Shown piece after piece: positions 38,245-53,093 of a stretch of 64,000 bases of DNA. Under the pieces are notes generated by a model. The model saw nothing but the letters and a program-made list of their open reading frames with translations, was not told the DNA's origin and made no database searches. The stretch comes from Escherichia coli (GTDB lineage Bacteria; Pseudomonadota; Gammaproteobacteria; Enterobacterales; Enterobacteriaceae). The stretch is from assembly GCF_011045215.1 (NCBI RefSeq), contig NZ_CP049201.1; one strand, 5' to 3'. How positions within the stretch are numbered: position 1 is the stretch's first letter; each line of letters starts with the position of its first letter. The position numbers were made by a program, and so were the translations under genes.

Positions 38245-39342
38245 ATGAAAGGACGTTGGGTAAAGTACCTTCTTATGGGCACGGTTGTGGCAATGCTTGC
38301 CGCCTGCTCTTCCAAACCAACCGATCGCGGACAGCAATATAAAGACGGGAAATTTACCCAGCCTTTCTCTCTGGTGAACCAACCAGATGCCGTTGGCGCG
38401 CCGATTAACGCCGGTGATTTTGCCGAGCAAATTAACCATATCCGTAATTCGTCACCGCGTCTGTATGGCAACCAGAGTAATGTTTATAACGCGGTGCAAG
38501 AGTGGCTGCGCGCAGGCGGTGATACCCGCAATATGCGCCAGTTCGGCATTGATGCCTGGCAGATGGAAGGTGCCGACAATTATGGTAACGTGCAGTTTAC
38601 AGGCTATTACACGCCGGTAATTCAGGCGCGCCATACCCGCCAGGGCGAGTTCCAGTATCCGATTTACCGTATGCCGCCAAAACGTGGTCGTCTGCCGTCT
38701 CGTGCGGAGATCTACGCGGGGGCATTGAGCGATAAATACATCCTCGCTTACAGCAACTCTCTGATGGATAATTTCATTATGGATGTGCAGGGTAGTGGGT
38801 ATATCGACTTTGGTGATGGCAGTCCGCTTAACTTTTTCAGCTATGCAGGGAAAAACGGTCATGCCTATCGCAGCATTGGTAAGGTGCTGATCGACCGTGG
38901 CGAAGTGAAAAAAGAAGATATGTCGATGCAGGCGATTCGTCACTGGGGCGAAACACACAGTGAAGCCGAGGTTCGCGAGCTGCTGGAACAGAACCCGTCT
39001 TTCGTTTTCTTTAAACCGCAATCTTTTGCACCGGTGAAAGGGGCAAGTGCGGTGCCGCTGGTTGGCCGTGCTTCTGTTGCCTCTGATCGTTCAATTATTC
39101 CGCCAGGTACAACCTTGCTGGCAGAAGTGCCGCTGCTGGATAATAACGGCAAATTTAACGGTCAGTATGAACTGCGTCTGATGGTGGCACTGGATGTCGG
39201 TGGCGCAATCAAAGGCCAACACTTCGATATCTATCAAGGGATCGGGCCGGAAGCCGGACACCGCGCAGGTTGGTACAACCACTATGGACGTGTCTGGGTG
39301 CTGAAAACGGCTCCGGGCGCAGGTAACGTCTTTAGCGGCTGA
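38245..39342 (+). CDS. mltA: membrane-bound lytic murein transglycosylase A
   Basis: ORF trimmed to MKGRWVKYLLMGTVVAMLAAC (lipobox), 365 aa; the longer track ORF from 37948 would overlap the tRNA. Confidence 0.95.
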   Translation: MKGRWVKYLLMGTVVAMLAACSSKPTDRGQQYKDGKFTQPFSLVNQPDAVGAPINAGDFAEQINHIRNSSPRLYGNQSNVYNAVQEWLRAGGDTRNMRQFGIDAWQMEGADNYGNVQFTGYYTPVIQARHTRQGEFQYPIYRMPPKRGRLPSRAEIYAGALSDKYILAYSNSLMDNFIMDVQGSGYIDFGDGSPLNFFSYAGKNGHAYRSIGKVLIDRGEVKKEDMSMQAIRHWGETHSEAEVRELLEQNPSFVFFKPQSFAPVKGASAVPLVGRASVASDRSIIPPGTTLLAEVPLLDNNGKFNGQYELRLMVALDVGGAIKGQHFDIYQGIGPEAGHRAGWYNHYGRVWVLKTAPGAGNVFSG

Positions 39343-46034: not shown

Positions 46035-46766
46035 TCAGGCTGTTACCAAAGAAGTTGCAACCTGGCGCTCATCAGAAATAATGTGCGTTACCTCATCCAG
46101 ATGCCCGATGCGGGCTTCCCCTGAACGATTAAATTTACTTTTATCAATCAATAACAACGATTGCGCGGCACGTTTTAATAGCATCGATTTGTAATCAGCG
46201 TTGATGGCATTGGAGTCCCACAGTGCGCCGCTGCTATCGATCCCTTCACAAGAAAAAATAAACAGATCGATTTCCAGCGATTTAAGTTGGGAAATCAGCG
46301 AGGGATTGACGTAACAGCCATATTTGCGCTCAAGTGTGCCGCCGGAACTGATCAGTTGAATGCGTTCGCGTTTACCGAGTTCATGGCAAATCGGATGGCT
46401 ATTGGTGAAGACCTGAATGTTGATGTCAGGCAACTGACGTGCCAGATACCAGCAGGTTGAACTGGCGTCTAAGGCTATCACCATCCCTTCTTCAATCCAC
46501 GCGAGCGCCTCGCGCGCGATATCTGCTTTATGCGCATAATGGCTTTTCAGCCTGATGTGAAAGGGATCGCCACTGTCTTGATTTTGACGGTGGATATATT
46601 TAGCGCGTCCATGATTGCGCAGAATTTTACCCTGCGTCTGTAATTCATTGAGATCGCGACGAATGGTTTCTTTACTGACCTTTAGCTGTTCAGAGAGAGC
46701 TTCCGTGGTCAGGCTGGTATGGTTCAGCAGCAGGTCGACTATCGCTTGCTGGCGTGCCGCTTTCAT
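46035..46766 (-). CDS. fucR: L-fucose operon activator (DeoR family)
   Basis: ORF trimmed to MKAARQQAIVDLL (243 aa). Confidence 0.93.
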   Translation of the reverse strand: MKAARQQAIVDLLLNHTSLTTEALSEQLKVSKETIRRDLNELQTQGKILRNHGRAKYIHRQNQDSGDPFHIRLKSHYAHKADIAREALAWIEEGMVIALDASSTCWYLARQLPDINIQVFTNSHPICHELGKRERIQLISSGGTLERKYGCYVNPSLISQLKSLEIDLFIFSCEGIDSSGALWDSNAINADYKSMLLKRAAQSLLLIDKSKFNRSGEARIGHLDEVTHIISDERQVATSLVTA

Positions 46767-48774: not shown

Positions 48775-50550
48775 TTAACGCTTGTACAACGGCCCGTAGT
48801 TCTGGCAAGCGCGGTAATCTTGGCCTTCAATATCCATGCCGTGCGCAGCCCAGGCAGAAGGACGATACACTTTGGTCTCTTCTACGTTGTGCATACATAC
48901 CGGGATACGCAGCATGGAGGCGAGAGTGATAAAGTCTGCGCCAACGTGGCCGATGGTCAGAACCCCATGGTTAGCGCCCCAGTTCGCCATTACCGAGTAC
49001 ACATCCGTAAACGGCCCTTTACCGGTGAGGCGCGGTGCAAACCAGGTGGTTGGCCAGGTTGAGTTGGTGCGTTTGTTGAGGATGTCATGCACATCCTTCG
49101 GCAATTCCACGCTCCAGCCTTCCGCGATTTGCAGTACCGGTCCCAGGCCTTTGATGATGTTGACACGAGTCATGGTGAACGGGACGCCGCCTTCGGTAAG
49201 GAAGCGGGAAGAGTAACCGCCGCCACGGAAGTATTCGTGGATCGCCGGGCACCATTCGGTAGCGGCGAGGCAAGCGTCAGCCTCTTGCTGAGAGATTTCC
49301 CAGTGCGGCTTCATCGTCGGGTTACCTTCGCTGTCGCGTTGTTTACAGGAACCGTCCAGCGCAGCAGAACCTGAGTTGATCAAATGGATGATGCCGTGTT
49401 CTGCCAGTCCATCGAGTTTATGCCCCGTTACACGCTCAATTGCTTCTGGTGACCAGTAGGTACGCACATCGGCAAATACCTGAGCGGTGCCGGTGAGCTG
49501 GTGACCCATTAGCATTGCCACGCCGTTAAGACTGTCGTTTTCGGTCGCCACGACAAAGGGTTCGCGCACGCCATTCCAGTCAAATGAACTGTTAAGGATC
49601 GCTTCGGCGGTGTCGCCATTGGGATATTGATCGGTCCAGTGGCGTTGTCCCTGGAAGCCCGCAGCGATGGCGTTGTAGCCAAGTGATTCTTCCACGCGAC
49701 CAATATCGGCCAGTTTGCTGTTGCCTTGCATCATGTCGCGGATACACATCGCCATCAGTAAACTTTCGCGCAGAACTGCGCGGCTTTGCTCGGCATTACG
49801 TTGATACTGTTTGTTATTTTCATCTTCGCCATAGCGGAAGTTTTTATCAGCCCAGGCCAGTGCCATTTCCAGTTCGGCTTCGTCGTAAATCTTCTGATCG
49901 ATACGGCGACGCAGTTCGGTCATATCCACCGCCTGGACTTTCATTCCCAGCCAGGATTCAAAGAAGTTGTGATCAACAATGGAACCGGCGATACCCATCG
50001 AAACGCCGCCCAGCGACAGATAGCTTTTACCTTTCATACTGGCGACGGCCAAACCGGCGCGGGCAAAGCGCAGCAGTTTTTCTTCAACATCGGCAGGAAT
50101 CGATGTGTCATCGGCATCCTGAACGTCATGACCGTAAATGGAGAATGCCGGGATGCCTTTCTGGCTGTGAGCTGCCAGAGCCGCGGCCAGGTAAACAGCG
50201 CCGGGGCGTTCAGTGCCGTTAAAGCCCCAAATGGCTTTCGGGCGGGTTGGATCCATGTCGATGGTTTCACTGCCATAGCACCAGCAAGGCGTTACCGTAA
50301 TGGTGAGGCCTACATTCTGACTGCTAAATTTTTCTTCGCAAGCCGCGGCTTCAGCCATACCCGCGATACAGGTATCGGAAATGACACACTCGACGGCAGC
50401 TCCGCAGGCATGGCGCAGTTTCTCGGTCAGCAGTGCGGCCGTAGCTTTCGCCATATTCATTGTTTGTTCTTCAAGCGACTCACGAACACCCATGCGACGA
50501 CCGTCAATAACCGGGCGGATACCAATTTTCGGTAAGCTGATTTTTTTCAT
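48775..50550 (-). CDS. fucI: L-fucose isomerase
   Basis: 591-aa ORF. Confidence 0.96.
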
Positions 50551-50582
50551 TACAGATTCCTCACTTTATTCGGAAAATATGT

Positions 50583-51899
50583 TCAGTTAGTTGCCGTTTG
50601 AGAACGGAAACGGGCAAAGATAAAGATGACCGCGAAGCAGAGTGCGGGGATCAGTTCAGCAGTGGGGATGTTGCCCGCCGCGTCACTGACAAAACCCATG
50701 ACCGGAGTGACAATACCGCCGCCAATGATGGTCATAACGATGAAGGACGAACCGTATTTGGTGTCCTGGCCGAGATTCTTAATGCCCAGCGAGAAGATTG
50801 TTGGGTACTGAATCGACATAAAGGCGCTGCATAAAGTCAGGGCTATTAAGCCCACATGACCGTCAGCGAAGGCTGAGATCAGGCACAGTGCCATAGCGAT
50901 TAATGCGTAGGCGGCCAGGACTTTGTGTGGTGCGAAGCGACTGATGAGCCAGGTACCGGTGAAACGACCAATAAAGAAGCACACCATGGTTCCGGTTAAA
51001 TAGTTAGCGGCAAAGCCTGCAGTCATACCTGGAATTTCTTCTACAGCGTAGCGAATCAAATAGCTCCAGCAGGCCGTTTGTGCGCCAACGTAGCAGAATT
51101 GCGCTAATACTGCCCAGCGCCAGTGGCGAATACGCGCCAGGCGAGAAAGCGATGCGGAGAACGATCCTTGTTTGGCGTCACTGTGATTATCACTCTGCAA
51201 TGCCGGGAATTTCGTCAGCATGATCAGCAGGGCGACCAGTAACACGATAGCCACGATGATCATATAAGGTGTCTGTACCGATAATACCAGGCTGTGTTTA
51301 TACGCACTCAATTGCTCTGGAGACATTTTATCGAGAACGTCTTGCGATTGATGTGGCACGTTAGACAAAATAAGACTTTGCCCAAAGACAACCGCGATAA
51401 TTGCGCCAAATGAGTTAAATGTTTGCGCAAGATTTAAGCGGAAGTGACCACTGCTTTCCGGCCCTAATACCGTAACAAAAGGGTTTGCGGCAGTTTCCAG
51501 ACAACCTAATCCGGCTGCAATAATAAATAGGCCAACTAAAAATAAGGTGTAGTTCATTATTTCTGCGGCGGGCCAGAATAATGCAGCACCCAAGGCATAT
51601 AAAAATAACCCGGTAATAATTCCTGCTTTATAACTGAGTTTTTTCATCAATATCCCAGCAGGGATTGGGATAATGAAATAACCAAAGTAAAAGGCCGATT
51701 GGATCAGGCCAGCCTGGAAATTTGTCAGTGTAAAAGCCTGCTGGAATTGAGGTAATAAAATGTCGTTAAGGTTATTGGCTACCGCCCAAAGAAAAAACAG
51801 TGAGCACAGCAGCGCGAATGGAATAATGTAACTTCTGCTTTGCCCTGCATCTTTATCTACCGCACGGTAACTCTGCGTTTGTATTGATGTGTTTCCCAT
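50583..51899 (-). CDS. fucP: L-fucose:H+ symporter (MFS)
   Basis: 438-aa membrane ORF. Confidence 0.95.
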   Translation of the reverse strand: MGNTSIQTQSYRAVDKDAGQSRSYIIPFALLCSLFFLWAVANNLNDILLPQFQQAFTLTNFQAGLIQSAFYFGYFIIPIPAGILMKKLSYKAGIITGLFLYALGAALFWPAAEIMNYTLFLVGLFIIAAGLGCLETAANPFVTVLGPESSGHFRLNLAQTFNSFGAIIAVVFGQSLILSNVPHQSQDVLDKMSPEQLSAYKHSLVLSVQTPYMIIVAIVLLVALLIMLTKFPALQSDNHSDAKQGSFSASLSRLARIRHWRWAVLAQFCYVGAQTACWSYLIRYAVEEIPGMTAGFAANYLTGTMVCFFIGRFTGTWLISRFAPHKVLAAYALIAMALCLISAFADGHVGLIALTLCSAFMSIQYPTIFSLGIKNLGQDTKYGSSFIVMTIIGGGIVTPVMGFVSDAAGNIPTAELIPALCFAVIFIFARFRSQTATN

Positions 51900-52087
51900 A
51901 GCATCCTCTTAGGTTCAGAAGCTTAAGCACGTAATCGGTTATGTTTTCAAAAGTGCAAAACCAGCGAGTTCGGGCTTCATATCAGTGAATATTTGCCTGT
52001 CTGAAATGAACTCATGGATTCATTTTCAAATAAAAAACGCTCTGTAATATGACGGCGGTCACACTTATTAGCTGGAAGGTGACTTTA

Positions 52088-52103
52088 TGTGACTACCATC
52101 ACT
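52088..52103. promoter_or_regulatory. CRP-like site in the fucP / fucA divergent control region
   Basis: TGTGACTACCATCACT resembles the CRP consensus TGTGA-N6-TCACA. Confidence 0.4.
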
Positions 52104-52445
52104 TTAATAATCGAAATTTCATGCCCGTTTCAGAAAATAAATCATAAAAAACACAAACCAGATGACCGTATTAATTGTTTATGCCGAAAACGGGCATTCC
52201 TGGCTTAGGTGAATAGAAAAATGACCGTTTTGATAAATATTTTTAAGAGCGGTCATTTTTAATGGGGTTATAAAAAGAGAACTTGCAGTTATTTACTGTG
52301 ATTAGTTGAACCAGGTCACAAAATATAAGCTTGTGAATTTCTTTCTGGTTAATCAGGAAGAAGATGGTGGGTAATTAAACGGCTAATTCAATAGTGTGAA
52401 AGGAACAACATTATTGCCCTGTTTTGAATCAGAGAGAGGTAGCTA

Positions 52446-53093
52446 ATGGAACGAAATAAACTTGCTCGTCAGATTATTGACACTTGCCTGGAAATGACCC
52501 GCCTGGGACTGAACCAGGGGACAGCGGGGAACGTCAGTGTACGTTATCAGGATGGGATGCTGATTACGCCTACAGGCATTCCATATGAAAAACTGACGGA
52601 GTCGCATATTGTCTTTATTAATGGCAACGGTAAACATGAGGAAGGAAAGCTCCCCTCAAGCGAATGGCGTTTCCATATGGCGGCCTATCAAAGCAGACCG
52701 GATGCCAACGCGGTTGTTCACAATCATGCCGTTCATTGCACAGCAGTTTCCATTCTTAACCGACCGATCCCCGCTATTCACTACATGATTGCGGCGGCTG
52801 GCGGTAATTCTATTCCTTGCGCGCCTTATGCGACCTTTGGAACACGCGAACTTTCTGAACATGTTGCGCTGGCTCTCAAAAATCGTAAGGCAACTTTGTT
52901 ACAACATCATGGGCTTATCGCTTGTGAGGTGAATCTGGAAAAAGCGTTATGGCTGGCGCATGAAGTTGAAGTGCTGGCGCAACTTTACCTGACGACCCTG
53001 GCGATTACGGACCCGGTGCCAGTGCTGAGCGATGAAGAGATTGCCGTAGTGCTGGAGAAATTCAAAACCTATGGGTTACGGATTGAAGAGTAA
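52446..53093 (+). CDS. fucA: L-fuculose-1-phosphate aldolase
   Basis: 215-aa ORF. Confidence 0.96.
   Translation: MERNKLARQIIDTCLEMTRLGLNQGTAGNVSVRYQDGMLITPTGIPYEKLTESHIVFINGNGKHEEGKLPSSEWRFHMAAYQSRPDANAVVHNHAVHCTAVSILNRPIPAIHYMIAAAGGNSIPCAPYATFGTRELSEHVALALKNRKATLLQHHGLIACEVNLEKALWLAHEVEVLAQLYLTTLAITDPVPVLSDEEIAVVLEKFKTYGLRIEE

What the first reader, a model, noticed from the sequence alone, without database searches (positions are those of the whole stretch)
52050..52320. Inverted repeats with TGACCG/CGGTCA motifs in the fucPIK / fucAO divergent control region
The 546-bp spacer contains a CRP-like site (TGTGACTACCATCACT, 52088-52103) and four copies of a GACCG/CGGTC core. Two of these form an 11-bp perfect inverted repeat AAAAATGACCG...CGGTCATTTTT (52217-52227 and 52250-52260) separated by an AT-rich 22-bp spacer. 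They could be operators for the DeoR-type activator FucR or a structural element.
Basis: inference. Interest (0 to 1): 0.35.

Follow-up and report, generated by a model that had tools for sequence, protein, structure and literature searches.

The report
FucR operator pairs, fuc control region
The repeated TGACCG/CGGTCA motifs between the two divergent E. coli fucose operons are binding sites for the fucose activator FucR, flanked by CRP sites; this is already published in outline, and comparison with 46 related species adds that the sites form inverted pairs with a fixed 28-bp spacing.

Summary
The window is E. coli and the 546-bp spacer lies between fucP and fucA. All coordinates check.

TGACCG/CGGTCA occurs 4 times against 0.11 expected. 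The motifs are already-known regulatory sites. The right arm of the 11-bp inverted repeat is the published FucR site OFucR3, whose mutation lowers fucAO induction more than 50-fold. TGTGACTACCATCACT sits where the published CRP site OCrp1 is placed. The CGGTCA at 52056 is not a FucR site; it lies inside CRP site OCrp0.

Across 46 Enterobacterales species five half-sites (consensus AAACGGKCAT) are conserved.

The pairs sit in two rigid modules joined by a variable linker:
- Crp0-Crp1-S1-S2-S3
- S4-S5-(59/60 bp)-Crp2

The arms do not covary, so a hairpin or cruciform is not supported.

Caveat: a published 5' truncation removes the left arm yet keeps about 70% of induction.

Verdict: ordinary, essentially known biology. 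The one modest new detail is the paired-operator architecture.

The parts
52045..52066 (.). CRP site OCrp0 (taaTATGAcggcggTCACActt).
   Evidence: The sequence is identical to the OCrp0 given in PMC11894529, where it was mutated and shown to be required for CRP activation of the IS5 fusion promoter. Across species TATGA and TCACA are conserved but the CGG is not. The FucR matrix scores it below 6 bits.
52085..52106 (.). CRP site, inferred to be the published OCrp1 (core TGTGA 52088-92, TCACT 52099-103).
   Evidence: It matches the CRP consensus at 9 of 10 positions in all 47 sequences. It lies 39-40 bp from OCrp0, centre to centre, in 46 of 47 sequences. Its position fits the description of OCrp1 in PMC11894529: the IS5 target lies between OCrp0 and OCrp1. 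The published OCrp1 sequence itself was not seen.
52119..52132 (-). FucR-type half-site S1 (core TGCCCG 52122-52127).
   Evidence: It scores 13.7 bits with the matrix. The core is intact in 41 of 47 sequences. It lies 29-30 bp from the Crp1 centre and 40-42 bp before S2.
52145..52156 (+). S1': a conserved block AAAAAACACAAA lying 28 bp after S1, where a partner half-site would be expected. It is degenerate in E. coli.
   Evidence: It is a consensus CGGTCA, exactly 28 bp after S1, in four Photorhabdus species (L078, L079, L081, L082). In most other genera it is the conserved AAAACCCACAG. Its function is not established.
52160..52173 (-). FucR-type half-site S2 (core TGACCG 52163-52168), the left arm of the second inverted pair.
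   Evidence: It scores 17.3 bits. The core is intact in 46 of 47 sequences. S3 follows at 28 bp in 45 of 47 and at 29 bp in the other 2.
52184..52198 (+). FucR site S3, the published OFucR2 (ccgaaaaCGGgCAtt here; K-12 has CGGtCA). It is the right arm of the S2/S3 pair.
   Evidence: PMC11011485: the site was proposed from multiDAP binding data, and mutating it lowers induced PfucAO activity by about 30%. It scores 18.5 bits.
52217..52232 (-). FucR-type half-site S4 (core TGACCG 52222-52227).
   Evidence: It is the best matrix hit in the 64-kb window (19.2 bits). The core is intact in 44 of 47 sequences. S5 follows at 28 bp in 38 and at 29 bp in 9. It is not named as a site in the text of PMC11011485.
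52228..52249 (.). The 22-bp AT-rich spacer between the S4 and S5 cores.
   Evidence: Its length is fixed at 22-23 bp, its sequence is poorly conserved, and its mean A+T is 0.85 against 0.65 for whole spacers.
52243..52260 (+). FucR site S5, the published OFucR3 (ttaagagCGGtCAtt).
   Evidence: PMC11011485: mutating it lowers fucose-induced PfucAO activity more than 50-fold. It lies 59-60 bp from the OCrp2 centre in all 47 sequences.
52302..52323 (.). CRP site OCrp2 (ttagtTGAaccaggTCACAaaa). It contains the GGTCAC at 52314-52319.
   Evidence: PMC11011485: mutating it reduces induced activity 350-fold. It is conserved in all 47 sequences. It lies 70.5 bp upstream of the published fucAO transcription start at 52383.
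52072..52075 (.). Position of the K-12 IS5 target CTAG (-374 to -371 from the fucA ATG). This strain has CTGG.
   Evidence: The alignment with MG1655 is.

Best explanation
The TGACCG/CGGTCA motifs are half-sites for FucR, the DeoR-family activator of the fucose regulon (inducer fuculose-1-phosphate). The extended consensus is AAACGGKCAT.

The spacer holds five good half-sites:
- S1 at 52122 (- strand)
- S2 at 52163 (- strand)
- S3 at 52191 (+ strand)
- S4 at 52222 (- strand)
- S5 at 52250 (+ strand)

They lie in the untranscribed centre of the spacer, between the CRP sites of the two divergent promoters. S2/S3 and S4/S5 are inverted pairs whose cores start 28 bp apart.

A half-site has no internal symmetry. 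I therefore infer that each one takes a single winged-helix domain, and that a pair is filled by two subunits of a FucR oligomer across an AT-rich, probably bent, spacer.

It sits a fixed 59-60 bp upstream of CRP site OCrp2 and forms the fucAO activation module. Bound FucR helps CRP at OCrp2 (-70.5), and CRP then recruits RNA polymerase. This is the mechanism proposed in PMC11011485.

S1-S3 sit at fixed distances from OCrp1 and OCrp0 and probably serve fucPIK in the same way.

Status of each step:
- Shown by others: the FucR and CRP dependence of OFucR2, OFucR3 and OCrp2.
- Shown here: the conservation, the spacing and the module structure.
- Inferred: how many subunits bind each site, the role of S4, and the assignment of S1-S3 to fucPIK.
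For: **Identity of the locus and of the regulator**
- The window is E. coli, with fucPIKUR and fucAO annotated on either side.
- FucR has HTH_DeoR and DeoRC domains.

**Published work**
- The multiDAP motif is ..AAAACGG[T/G]CAT.
- Mutating OFucR3 (S5) gives a loss of more than 50-fold. Mutating OFucR2 (S3) gives about 30%.

**Statistics**
- None of 2000 shuffles reach the observed core count.
- 5 of the top 9 matrix hits in the 64-kb window fall in the 546-bp spacer.
- In the other species there are 219 hits of at least 10 bits in the spacers against 60 in 271 kb of flanks.

**Phylogenetic footprint**
- In the alignment of 47 spacers the conserved blocks coincide with the five half-sites and the CRP sites.

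**Spacing**
- S2 to S3 is 28 bp in 45 of 47 sequences.
- S4 to S5 is 28 bp in 38 and 29 bp in 9.
- S5 to Crp2 is 59-60 bp in all 47.
- Crp1 to S1 is 29-30 bp in 46 of 47.
- S3 to S4 varies from 20 to 53 bp, and reaches 145 bp where an insertion is present.

**Independent contexts**
- Serratia sp. DD3 has fucA-fucO without a divergent fucP. It carries one stand-alone ATGCCCGTTT-N16-AAACGGGCAT pair, followed 59 bp later by a CRP-like site.
- Edwardsiella carries the whole array.
- Four Photorhabdus species have a third consensus pair, S1/S1', also 28 bp apart.
Against: - No direct FucR footprint or gel shift on these sites was found in the papers I could read. Physical binding rests on a high-throughput in vitro assay that I know only at second hand.
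- The published truncation PAO.V6 (-206 to +30) starts at window 52240. It removes both S3 and S4 but loses only about 30% of induced activity, the same as mutating S3 alone. The left arm is therefore not needed for most fucAO induction in that reporter, which sat at the lac locus in cells grown on fucose. This argues against the pair being an obligatory unit.
- A spacing of 28 bp is about 2.7 helical turns, so the two half-sites lie on different faces of straight DNA. No solved structure of a close relative exists to show the geometry is feasible.
- S5, the functionally most important site, is the weakest of the five by matrix score (13.1 bits). It is degenerate in 12 of 47 species.
Confidence: 0.85

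Rival explanations
1. The sites are independent single FucR sites of about 15 bp, as the published papers treat them. On this view the inverted-repeat arrangement and the perfect 11-bp symmetry in E. coli have no mechanistic meaning. The fixed spacing would reflect only general constraints on a crowded control region.
For: The truncation PAO.V6 keeps S5 alone and retains about 70% of induction. The perfect 11-bp symmetry is confined to the Escherichia lineage; elsewhere the arms differ at the central base and in their flanks.
Against: The 28-29 bp spacing holds in 47 of 47 sequences for both pairs, while the neighbouring S3-S4 interval ranges from 20 to 53 bp. The same spacing recurs in a stand-alone pair in Serratia sp. 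DD3 and in a third pair in Photorhabdus. The orientation is always convergent (TGMCCG then CGGKCA). A half-site has no internal dyad that would let a symmetric dimer bind it on its own.
Confidence: 0.25
2. The inverted repeat is a structural element: a DNA cruciform, or a hairpin in a transcript, that acts through its fold.
For: As single-stranded DNA the E. coli sequence 52212-52265 folds at -10 kcal/mol, with a z-score of -5.3 against shuffles.
Against: - Across 46 distinct sequences 72.3% of arm cells pair, against 71.7% when partners are shuffled; 157 of 500 shuffles reach the observed value.
- The central pair is unpaired in 31 of 46 sequences. The complementarity is therefore explained by both arms matching one half-site consensus.
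- The 22-nt AT-rich loop is long for cruciform extrusion (general knowledge).
- The repeat lies upstream of both transcription starts. The fucAO start is at 52383 and fucP is transcribed leftwards.
- No Rfam family matches. The only hit is below threshold (20 bits against a cut-off of 63).
- No terminator-like site was found.
Confidence: 0.03
3. The motifs bind another regulator such as CRP or SrsR, or they are remnants of a mobile element's terminal inverted repeats.
For: TGACC/GGTCA resembles a CRP half-site, and one copy (52056) really is part of a CRP site. IS5 is known to target this spacer.
Against: - The arms are 22 bp apart, not 6 bp as in a CRP site.
- The conserved positions are CGG and CA with an A-rich 5' flank, not TGTGA.
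- The sites are at orthologous positions in about 20 genera, and the pair pattern occurs nowhere else in the window.
- Mutating OFucR3 abolishes induction by fucose, not basal CRP-dependent activity.
Confidence: 0.03

Closest known systems
Published FucR sites OFucR2/OFucR3 (OR2/OR3) and CRP sites OCrp0-3 of the E. coli K-12 fucPIK/fucAO intergenic region (Zhang et al. 2024, PMC11011485; Zhang et al. 2025, PMC11894529; motif from Baumgart et al. 2021)
   Same: It is the same locus and the sequence is essentially the same as K-12 (11 substitutions in the alignment). S5 is OFucR3 exactly. S3 is OFucR2 with one T-to-G change that stays within the motif. OCrp0, OCrp2 and OCrp3 match the published strings.
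   Different: - The papers describe single 15-bp sites. The text I could read does not mention the inverted-pair arrangement, the 28-bp spacing, or the left arm S4 by sequence.
- The 2025 paper speaks of four known FucR sites, two of them (OR0 and OR1) putative and without sequences. I count five good half-sites plus a degenerate sixth.
- This strain has CTGG where K-12 has the IS5 target CTAG.
Operators of other DeoR-family regulators (E. coli DeoR, GlpR, AgaR); from my own knowledge, not tested here
   Same: A DeoR-type winged-helix regulator with a sugar-phosphate effector binds several sites in one control region. Oligomeric proteins engage more than one site.
   Different: - DeoR and GlpR operators are compact palindromes of roughly 16-20 bp and those proteins are repressors.
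- Here the half-sites are about 10 bp, separated by a 16-22 bp AT-rich spacer, and the protein is an activator.
- The sites lie 110-180 bp upstream of the transcription starts, not over the promoter.
- No solved structure of a close relative exists.
Promoters that depend on CRP together with a sugar-specific activator bound further upstream, including divergent ones (melAB MelR/CRP, malE-malK MalT/CRP, araBAD, rhaBAD); general knowledge, with melAB cited in PMC11011485
   Same: A specific activator bound upstream of a CRP site is needed for CRP to work. Several activator and CRP sites sit at fixed distances in a shared divergent control region.
   Different: The activator belongs to a different family (DeoR type, not AraC or MalT type). 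Whether FucR touches CRP or bends the DNA is unknown.

Membership tests
FucR (DeoR-type) operator sites of the fuc regulon | Match to the FucR binding motif (..AAAACGG[T/G]CAT.., with CGG and CA most conserved) | tested here: met
   S5 and S3 equal the published OFucR3 and OFucR2. With a matrix trained only on non-Escherichia species, S4 scores 19.2, S3 18.5, S2 17.3, S1 13.7 and S5 13.1 bits. The copy at 52056 scores below 6 bits and fails.
FucR (DeoR-type) operator sites of the fuc regulon | Location in the control region of FucR-dependent operons, with a DeoR-type fucR gene in the same locus | tested here: met
   fucPIKUR and fucAO are annotated on either side. FucR has HTH_DeoR and DeoRC domains. 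Close FucR relatives, named L-fucose operon activator by their sources, occur in Salmonella, Citrobacter, Kluyvera and Enterobacter.
   Cores are intact in 41 (S1), 46 (S2), 46 (S3), 44 (S4) and 35 (S5) of 47 sequences. Order, orientation and spacing are conserved.
FucR (DeoR-type) operator sites of the fuc regulon | Requirement for fucose/FucR-dependent induction in vivo | not testable with these tools
   Published for S5 (more than 50-fold) and S3 (about 30%). S4 was never mutated alone; the truncation V6 removes it together with S3 and loses only about 30%. No data were found for S1 or S2.
FucR (DeoR-type) operator sites of the fuc regulon | Direct physical binding by purified FucR (footprint or gel shift) | not testable with these tools
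   Only the multiDAP assay of Baumgart et al. 2021, as cited in PMC11011485. That paper is not held, and the words footprint, EMSA and gel shift are absent from PMC11894529.
CRP (cAMP receptor protein) binding site | Match to TGTGA-N6-TCACA, and conservation | tested here: met
   52088-52103 matches at 9 of 10 positions in all 47 sequences. 52048-52063 matches at 9 of 10 in most, and 52305-52320 at 8-9 of 10 in nearly all. OCrp0 and OCrp2 are validated by mutation in the literature.
Structured DNA or RNA element (cruciform, hairpin, Rfam family) | Base pairing maintained by compensatory change across species | tested here: not met
   72.3% of cells pair against 71.7% in shuffles, and 157 of 500 shuffles reach the observed value. 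The only variable core pair is unpaired in 31 of 46 sequences. Fisher test on the central bases: p = 0.24.
Structured DNA or RNA element (cruciform, hairpin, Rfam family) | Match to a curated RNA family, or to a terminator-like signal | tested here: not met
   The only Rfam hit is far below its gathering score. No terminator-like site was found.
Compact palindromic DeoR/GlpR-type operator | Two half-sites that abut or nearly abut (16-20 bp palindrome) | tested here: not met
   The half-site cores are separated by 22-23 bp in all 47 sequences. The comparison operators are recalled from general knowledge.

The most novel reading that the evidence does not exclude
FucR recognises a long-spaced inverted repeat, TGMCCGTTT-N16-AAACGGKCA, with half-site cores 28 bp apart across a bendable AT-rich spacer. 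This would be an operator geometry not described for DeoR-family proteins.

On the same reading, the fuc divergent control region is built from two rigid CRP-FucR modules joined by a linker of free length:
- Crp0-Crp1-S1/S1'-S2/S3, serving fucPIK
- S4/S5-Crp2, serving fucAO

The left arm S4 is absent from the published site list as far as I could read. It would then be a real FucR contact that matters at native FucR levels, or for fucPIK.
Probability: 0.5. Interest if true: 0.4.

Novelty: already known. Interest (0 to 1): 0.22.

Why it matters
The fuc regulon is a classic model for co-activation by CRP and a specific regulator, and for gene activation by IS5.

The finding itself adds nothing new in kind. 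The motifs are FucR and CRP sites described in 2021-2025.

What the comparison adds is a testable architecture:
- paired half-sites at a fixed 28-bp spacing;
- a fifth well-conserved site and a degenerate sixth;
- two rigid modules.

This architecture could explain how one regulator serves two divergent promoters. It also gives a concrete design for footprinting and spacer-insertion experiments on a DeoR-family activator, for which no solved structure of a close relative was found.

Tried and rejected
- **Chance.** Rejected by shuffles and by conservation.
- **Hairpin or cruciform.** The E. coli sequence folds well as single-stranded DNA, but there is no covariation.
- **Rfam.** Only a sub-threshold chance hit to S. 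aureus tsr25.
- **Consensus promoter and terminator scan of the spacer.** Nothing was found, fewer than in shuffles. These CRP-dependent promoters are not visible to a sigma-70 consensus scan.
- **Older literature.** Podolny 1999 (PMC94201) and Chen 1989 (PMC210477), which should hold the fucPIK start site and CRP data, are not held. Baumgart 2021 is not held either.
- **Supplements of PMC11894529.** They do not give the OR0/OR1 sequences. I could not establish which of S1, S2 and S4 the authors count among the four known sites.
- **Literature search for a RegPrecise or comparative description of enterobacterial FucR operators.** Nothing relevant.
- **The search for homologous proteins with FucR.** It returned only close relatives, 85-100% identical. 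Conservation outside Enterobacterales was therefore not tested.
- **PDB sequence search with FucR.** No usable relative; the best DeoR-family hit has E = 0.2. No structural argument about the 28-bp geometry could be made.
- **S3/S4 as the binding unit.** Rejected because that spacing varies from 20 to 53 bp.

Full report
**What the locus is.** The 546-bp spacer matches 5012 complete E. coli genomes over at least 80% of its length at 95% identity or more, one of them at 100%. In that record the flanking genes are annotated as fucP-fucI-fucK-fucU-fucR on one side and fucA-fucO on the other. In window coordinates fucP is 50583-51899 (- strand), fucA is 52446-53093 (+ strand), and the spacer is 51900-52445. 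The product of fucR (46035-46766, - strand) has an HTH_DeoR domain and a DeoRC sensor domain.

**The observation.**
- TGTGACTACCATCACT is at 52088-52103.
- AAAAATGACCG is at 52217-52227 and its exact reverse complement CGGTCATTTTT at 52250-52260, with 22 bp between them.
- There are four GACCG/CGGTC cores, at 52056, 52164, 52223 and 52250.

The spacer is AT-rich (36% G+C against 51% for the window). That makes these G+C-rich hexamers more surprising:
- TGACCG/CGGTCA: 4 observed against 0.11 expected from dinucleotide-preserving shuffles. None of 2000 shuffles reached 4.
- Allowing the A/C variant: 6 observed against 0.21. None of 2000 reached 6.
- A perfect 11-nt inverted repeat with a loop of 3-60 nt is reached by 6 of 500 shuffles.
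- The pattern TGMCCG-N22-CGGKCA occurs twice in the 64-kb window, at 52163 and 52222. Both are in this spacer.

So was a further TGCCCG at 52122.

**What is already published.** Zhang et al. 2024 (PMC11011485) give the FucR motif from the multiDAP study of Baumgart et al. 2021. It is a 15-mer ending ..AAAACGG[T/G]CAT[T], with CGG and CA the most conserved positions. They name two sites.
- OFucR2 is ccgaaaaCGGtCAtt. Mutating it lowered fucose-induced PfucAO activity by about 30%.
- OFucR3 is ttaagagCGGtCAtt. Mutating it lowered induced activity more than 50-fold.
- Neither mutation changed the uninduced level.

OFucR2 is 52184-52198, where this strain has CGGGCA and K-12 has CGGTCA.

The same paper places the fucAO transcription start 63 bp before the ATG, at 52383. 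It validates CRP sites OCrp2 (52302-52323; 350-fold effect) and OCrp3 (52392-52413; about 30%).

Zhang et al. 2025 (PMC11894529) give OCrp0 as taaTaTGAcggcggTCACActt, which is window 52045-52066. They place the IS5 target CTAG (-374 to -371, window 52072-52075) between OCrp0 and OCrp1. Two consequences follow.
- The CGGTCA at 52056 is the right half of a CRP site.

[quoted passage not shown] Their sequences are not given in the text or in the supplements I could read.

**Comparative test.** A scan of one genome per species with FucA returned 80 loci. Of these, 46 have a divergent fucP (76-99% identical) 419-665 bp upstream of fucA. They come from about 20 genera: Escherichia, Citrobacter, Salmonella, Klebsiella, Raoultella, Kluyvera, Enterobacter, Yokenella, Kosakonia, Hafnia, Mangrovibacter, Buttiauxella, Rahnella, Yersinia, Photorhabdus and others.

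In a MAFFT alignment of the 47 spacers the strongly conserved blocks within 52040-52325 are three CRP sites and five half-sites.

| Half-site | Core and start | Strand |
|---|---|---|
| S1 | TGCCCG, 52122 | - |
| S2 | TGACCG, 52163 | - |
| S3 | CGGGCA, 52191 | + |
| S4 | TGACCG, 52222 | - |
| S5 | CGGTCA, 52250 | + |

The pooled consensus is AAACGGKCAT. The fourth core position is free (T, G or A). This agrees with the published motif.

A weight matrix was trained only on non-Escherichia sites and then scanned over the window.
- S4, the left arm, ranks first in the whole window at 19.2 bits.
- S3 scores 18.5, S2 17.3, S1 13.7 and S5 13.1 bits.
- Five of the nine best hits in 128 kb of scanned strand are in the spacer.
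- The 52056 copy scores below 6 bits.

Across the other species, hits of at least 10 bits number 219 in the spacers and 60 in 271 kb of flanking sequence.

**Architecture.** Distances between elements:

| Interval | Distance | Frequency |
|---|---|---|
| S2 to S3 | 28 bp | 45 of 47 (29 bp in 2) |
| S4 to S5 | 28 bp | 38 of 47 (29 bp in 9) |
| S1 to S2 | 40-42 bp | 45 of 47 |
| Crp0 to Crp1 | 39-40 bp | 46 of 47 |
| Crp1 to S1 | 29-30 bp | 46 of 47 |
| S5 to Crp2 | 59-60 bp | 47 of 47 |
| S3 to S4 | 20-53 bp | variable |

The S3-S4 interval reaches 145 bp in Photorhabdus australis, which carries an insertion there.

The region therefore consists of two rigid modules joined by a linker of free length:
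- Crp0-Crp1-S1-S2/S3 on the fucPIK side;
- S4/S5-Crp2 on the fucAO side.

The 22-23 bp between the cores of a pair is poorly conserved in sequence but very AT-rich (0.83-0.85 A+T against 0.65 for whole spacers).

Three observations from other contexts support the pair as a unit.
- Four Photorhabdus species have a consensus CGGTCA exactly 28 bp after S1. E. coli has the conserved but degenerate block AAAAAACACAAA (52145-52156) at that position.
- Edwardsiella carries the whole array next to a much more divergent transporter gene.
- Serratia sp. DD3 has fucA-fucO preceded by co-directional genes for periplasmic-binding-protein-type proteins instead of a divergent fucP. It carries one stand-alone ATGCCCGTTT-N16-AAACGGGCAT pair, followed 59 bp later by a CRP-like site.

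**Is it a structure?** The E. coli repeat folds well as single-stranded DNA (-10 kcal/mol, z = -5.3). The complementarity is not maintained for its own sake.
- Over 46 distinct sequences 72.3% of arm cells pair, against 71.7% after shuffling the partners. 157 of 500 shuffles reach the observed value.
- The one variable core position is unpaired in 31 of 46 sequences.
- The central bases of the two arms are not associated (Fisher p = 0.24).

The arms are complementary because both match one half-site consensus in opposite orientation. The perfect 11-bp symmetry is a feature of the Escherichia lineage. The repeat lies between the two divergent transcription starts, so it is not in either mRNA. 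No Rfam family and no terminator-like signal matches.

**Mechanism.** Work by others shows that fucAO induction needs FucR, CRP, OFucR3 and OCrp2. It also shows that FucR cannot act when OCrp2 is destroyed. The authors propose that bound FucR helps CRP occupy OCrp2, and that CRP then recruits RNA polymerase.

My additions are inferences from the anatomy.
- Each asymmetric half-site of about 10 bp takes one winged-helix domain.
- An inverted pair is filled by two subunits of a FucR oligomer across a bendable AT-rich spacer.
- The S4/S5 pair sits at about -158 and -130 from the fucAO start and at a fixed distance from OCrp2 (-70.5). It is the fucAO module.
- S1-S3 are fixed relative to OCrp1 and OCrp0 and serve fucPIK.

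A fucP start near 52014 would put OCrp0 at -41.5 and OCrp1 at -81.5. This is my inference, from a GAAAAT -10-like hexamer at 52022-52027 on the minus strand and from the statement that the start is a T. I did not see the mapped position.

**The main caveat.** The published truncation PAO.V6 (-206 to +30) begins at window 52240. It removes both S3 and S4 but loses only about 30% of induced activity, the same as the OFucR2 point mutation alone. In that reporter, placed at the lac locus in cells grown on fucose, S5 alone is nearly sufficient. The left arm may matter only at lower FucR levels, in the native chromosomal context, or for fucPIK. It may also be redundant for transcription. Its strict conservation says it is selected, but not for what.

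**Verdict.** The elements are known regulatory sites of a classic operon pair. The one addition of some value is the conserved paired-half-site architecture and the unlisted, best-scoring half-site S4.

Noticed in passing
window 52072-52075: K-12 has CTAG here. It is the only site where IS5 inserts to activate fucAO in propanediol-positive mutants (PMC11894529). This strain has CTGG, which does not fit the stated IS5 target consensus. About half of complete E. coli genomes (2478 of 5014, including O157:H7 strains) are at least 99% identical to the window over 52040-52110, which suggests that this allele is common. The count does not isolate this one base.
   Followed up: partly
window 52194: The published FucR site OFucR2 reads CGGGCA in this strain, in another E. 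coli (L004), in Escherichia sp. (L003) and in E. albertii (L005). K-12 has CGGTCA. Both variants fit the motif.
   Followed up: partly
window 52145-52156: The block AAAAAACACAAA (AAAACCCACAG in most other genera) lies exactly 28 bp after half-site S1. It keeps the AAAC and CA of a FucR half-site but lacks the GG. It is conserved in its own right, and it is a consensus CGGTCA in four Photorhabdus species. Whether it is a deliberately weak FucR site or binds something else is unexplained.
   Followed up: partly
L076 about 2680-2810 (Photorhabdus australis): An insertion of about 125 bp lies between half-sites S3 and S4 and leaves both pairs intact. By eye it resembles an ERIC-type enterobacterial intergenic repeat (it contains GTGAATCCCCGGGAG...GTGACCGGGGTGAG). 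This identification was not tested.
   Followed up: no
window 52331-52336 and 52350-52355: PMC11011485 gives the fucAO -35 element as TTGtgA at -96 to -91 from the ATG. In both K-12 and this window TTGTGA lies at -115 to -110, which is 36 bp before the proposed -10 at -73 to -68. The hexamer actually at -96 to -91 is TAATCA. The published sequence and coordinates do not agree.
   Followed up: no
window 17941-17954 and 38851-38864: Two isolated sequences match the FucR half-site matrix as well as the real sites do: AAAAACGGTCATTG (18.1 bits) inside ptsP, and AAAAACGGTCATGC (17.3 bits) between the tRNA-Met genes and mltA. Neither has a partner 28 bp away, so they are probably chance matches.
   Followed up: partly
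window 49917-50857 (fucI and fucP coding sequence): Six TGACCG/CGGTCA hexamers fall within 940 bp of coding sequence next to the control region. The hexamer is also twice as frequent in the whole window as shuffles predict (61 against 30.6). Only one of the six (at 50606) reaches 10 bits with the extended matrix, so codon usage is the likely cause.
   Followed up: partly
L061 2800-2910 (Serratia sp. DD3): Here fucA-fucO sits downstream of two co-directional genes for periplasmic-binding-protein-type proteins instead of a divergent fucP. It keeps a single perfect 10-bp inverted pair, ATGCCCGTTT-N16-AAACGGGCAT, with a CRP-like site 59 bp further on.
   Followed up: yes
L012, L031: Two loci carrying typical Enterobacteriaceae fuc spacers are labelled Serratia marcescens (L012) and Martelella alba, an alphaproteobacterium (L031). 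The labels look like misassignment or contamination of the source assemblies.
   Followed up: no
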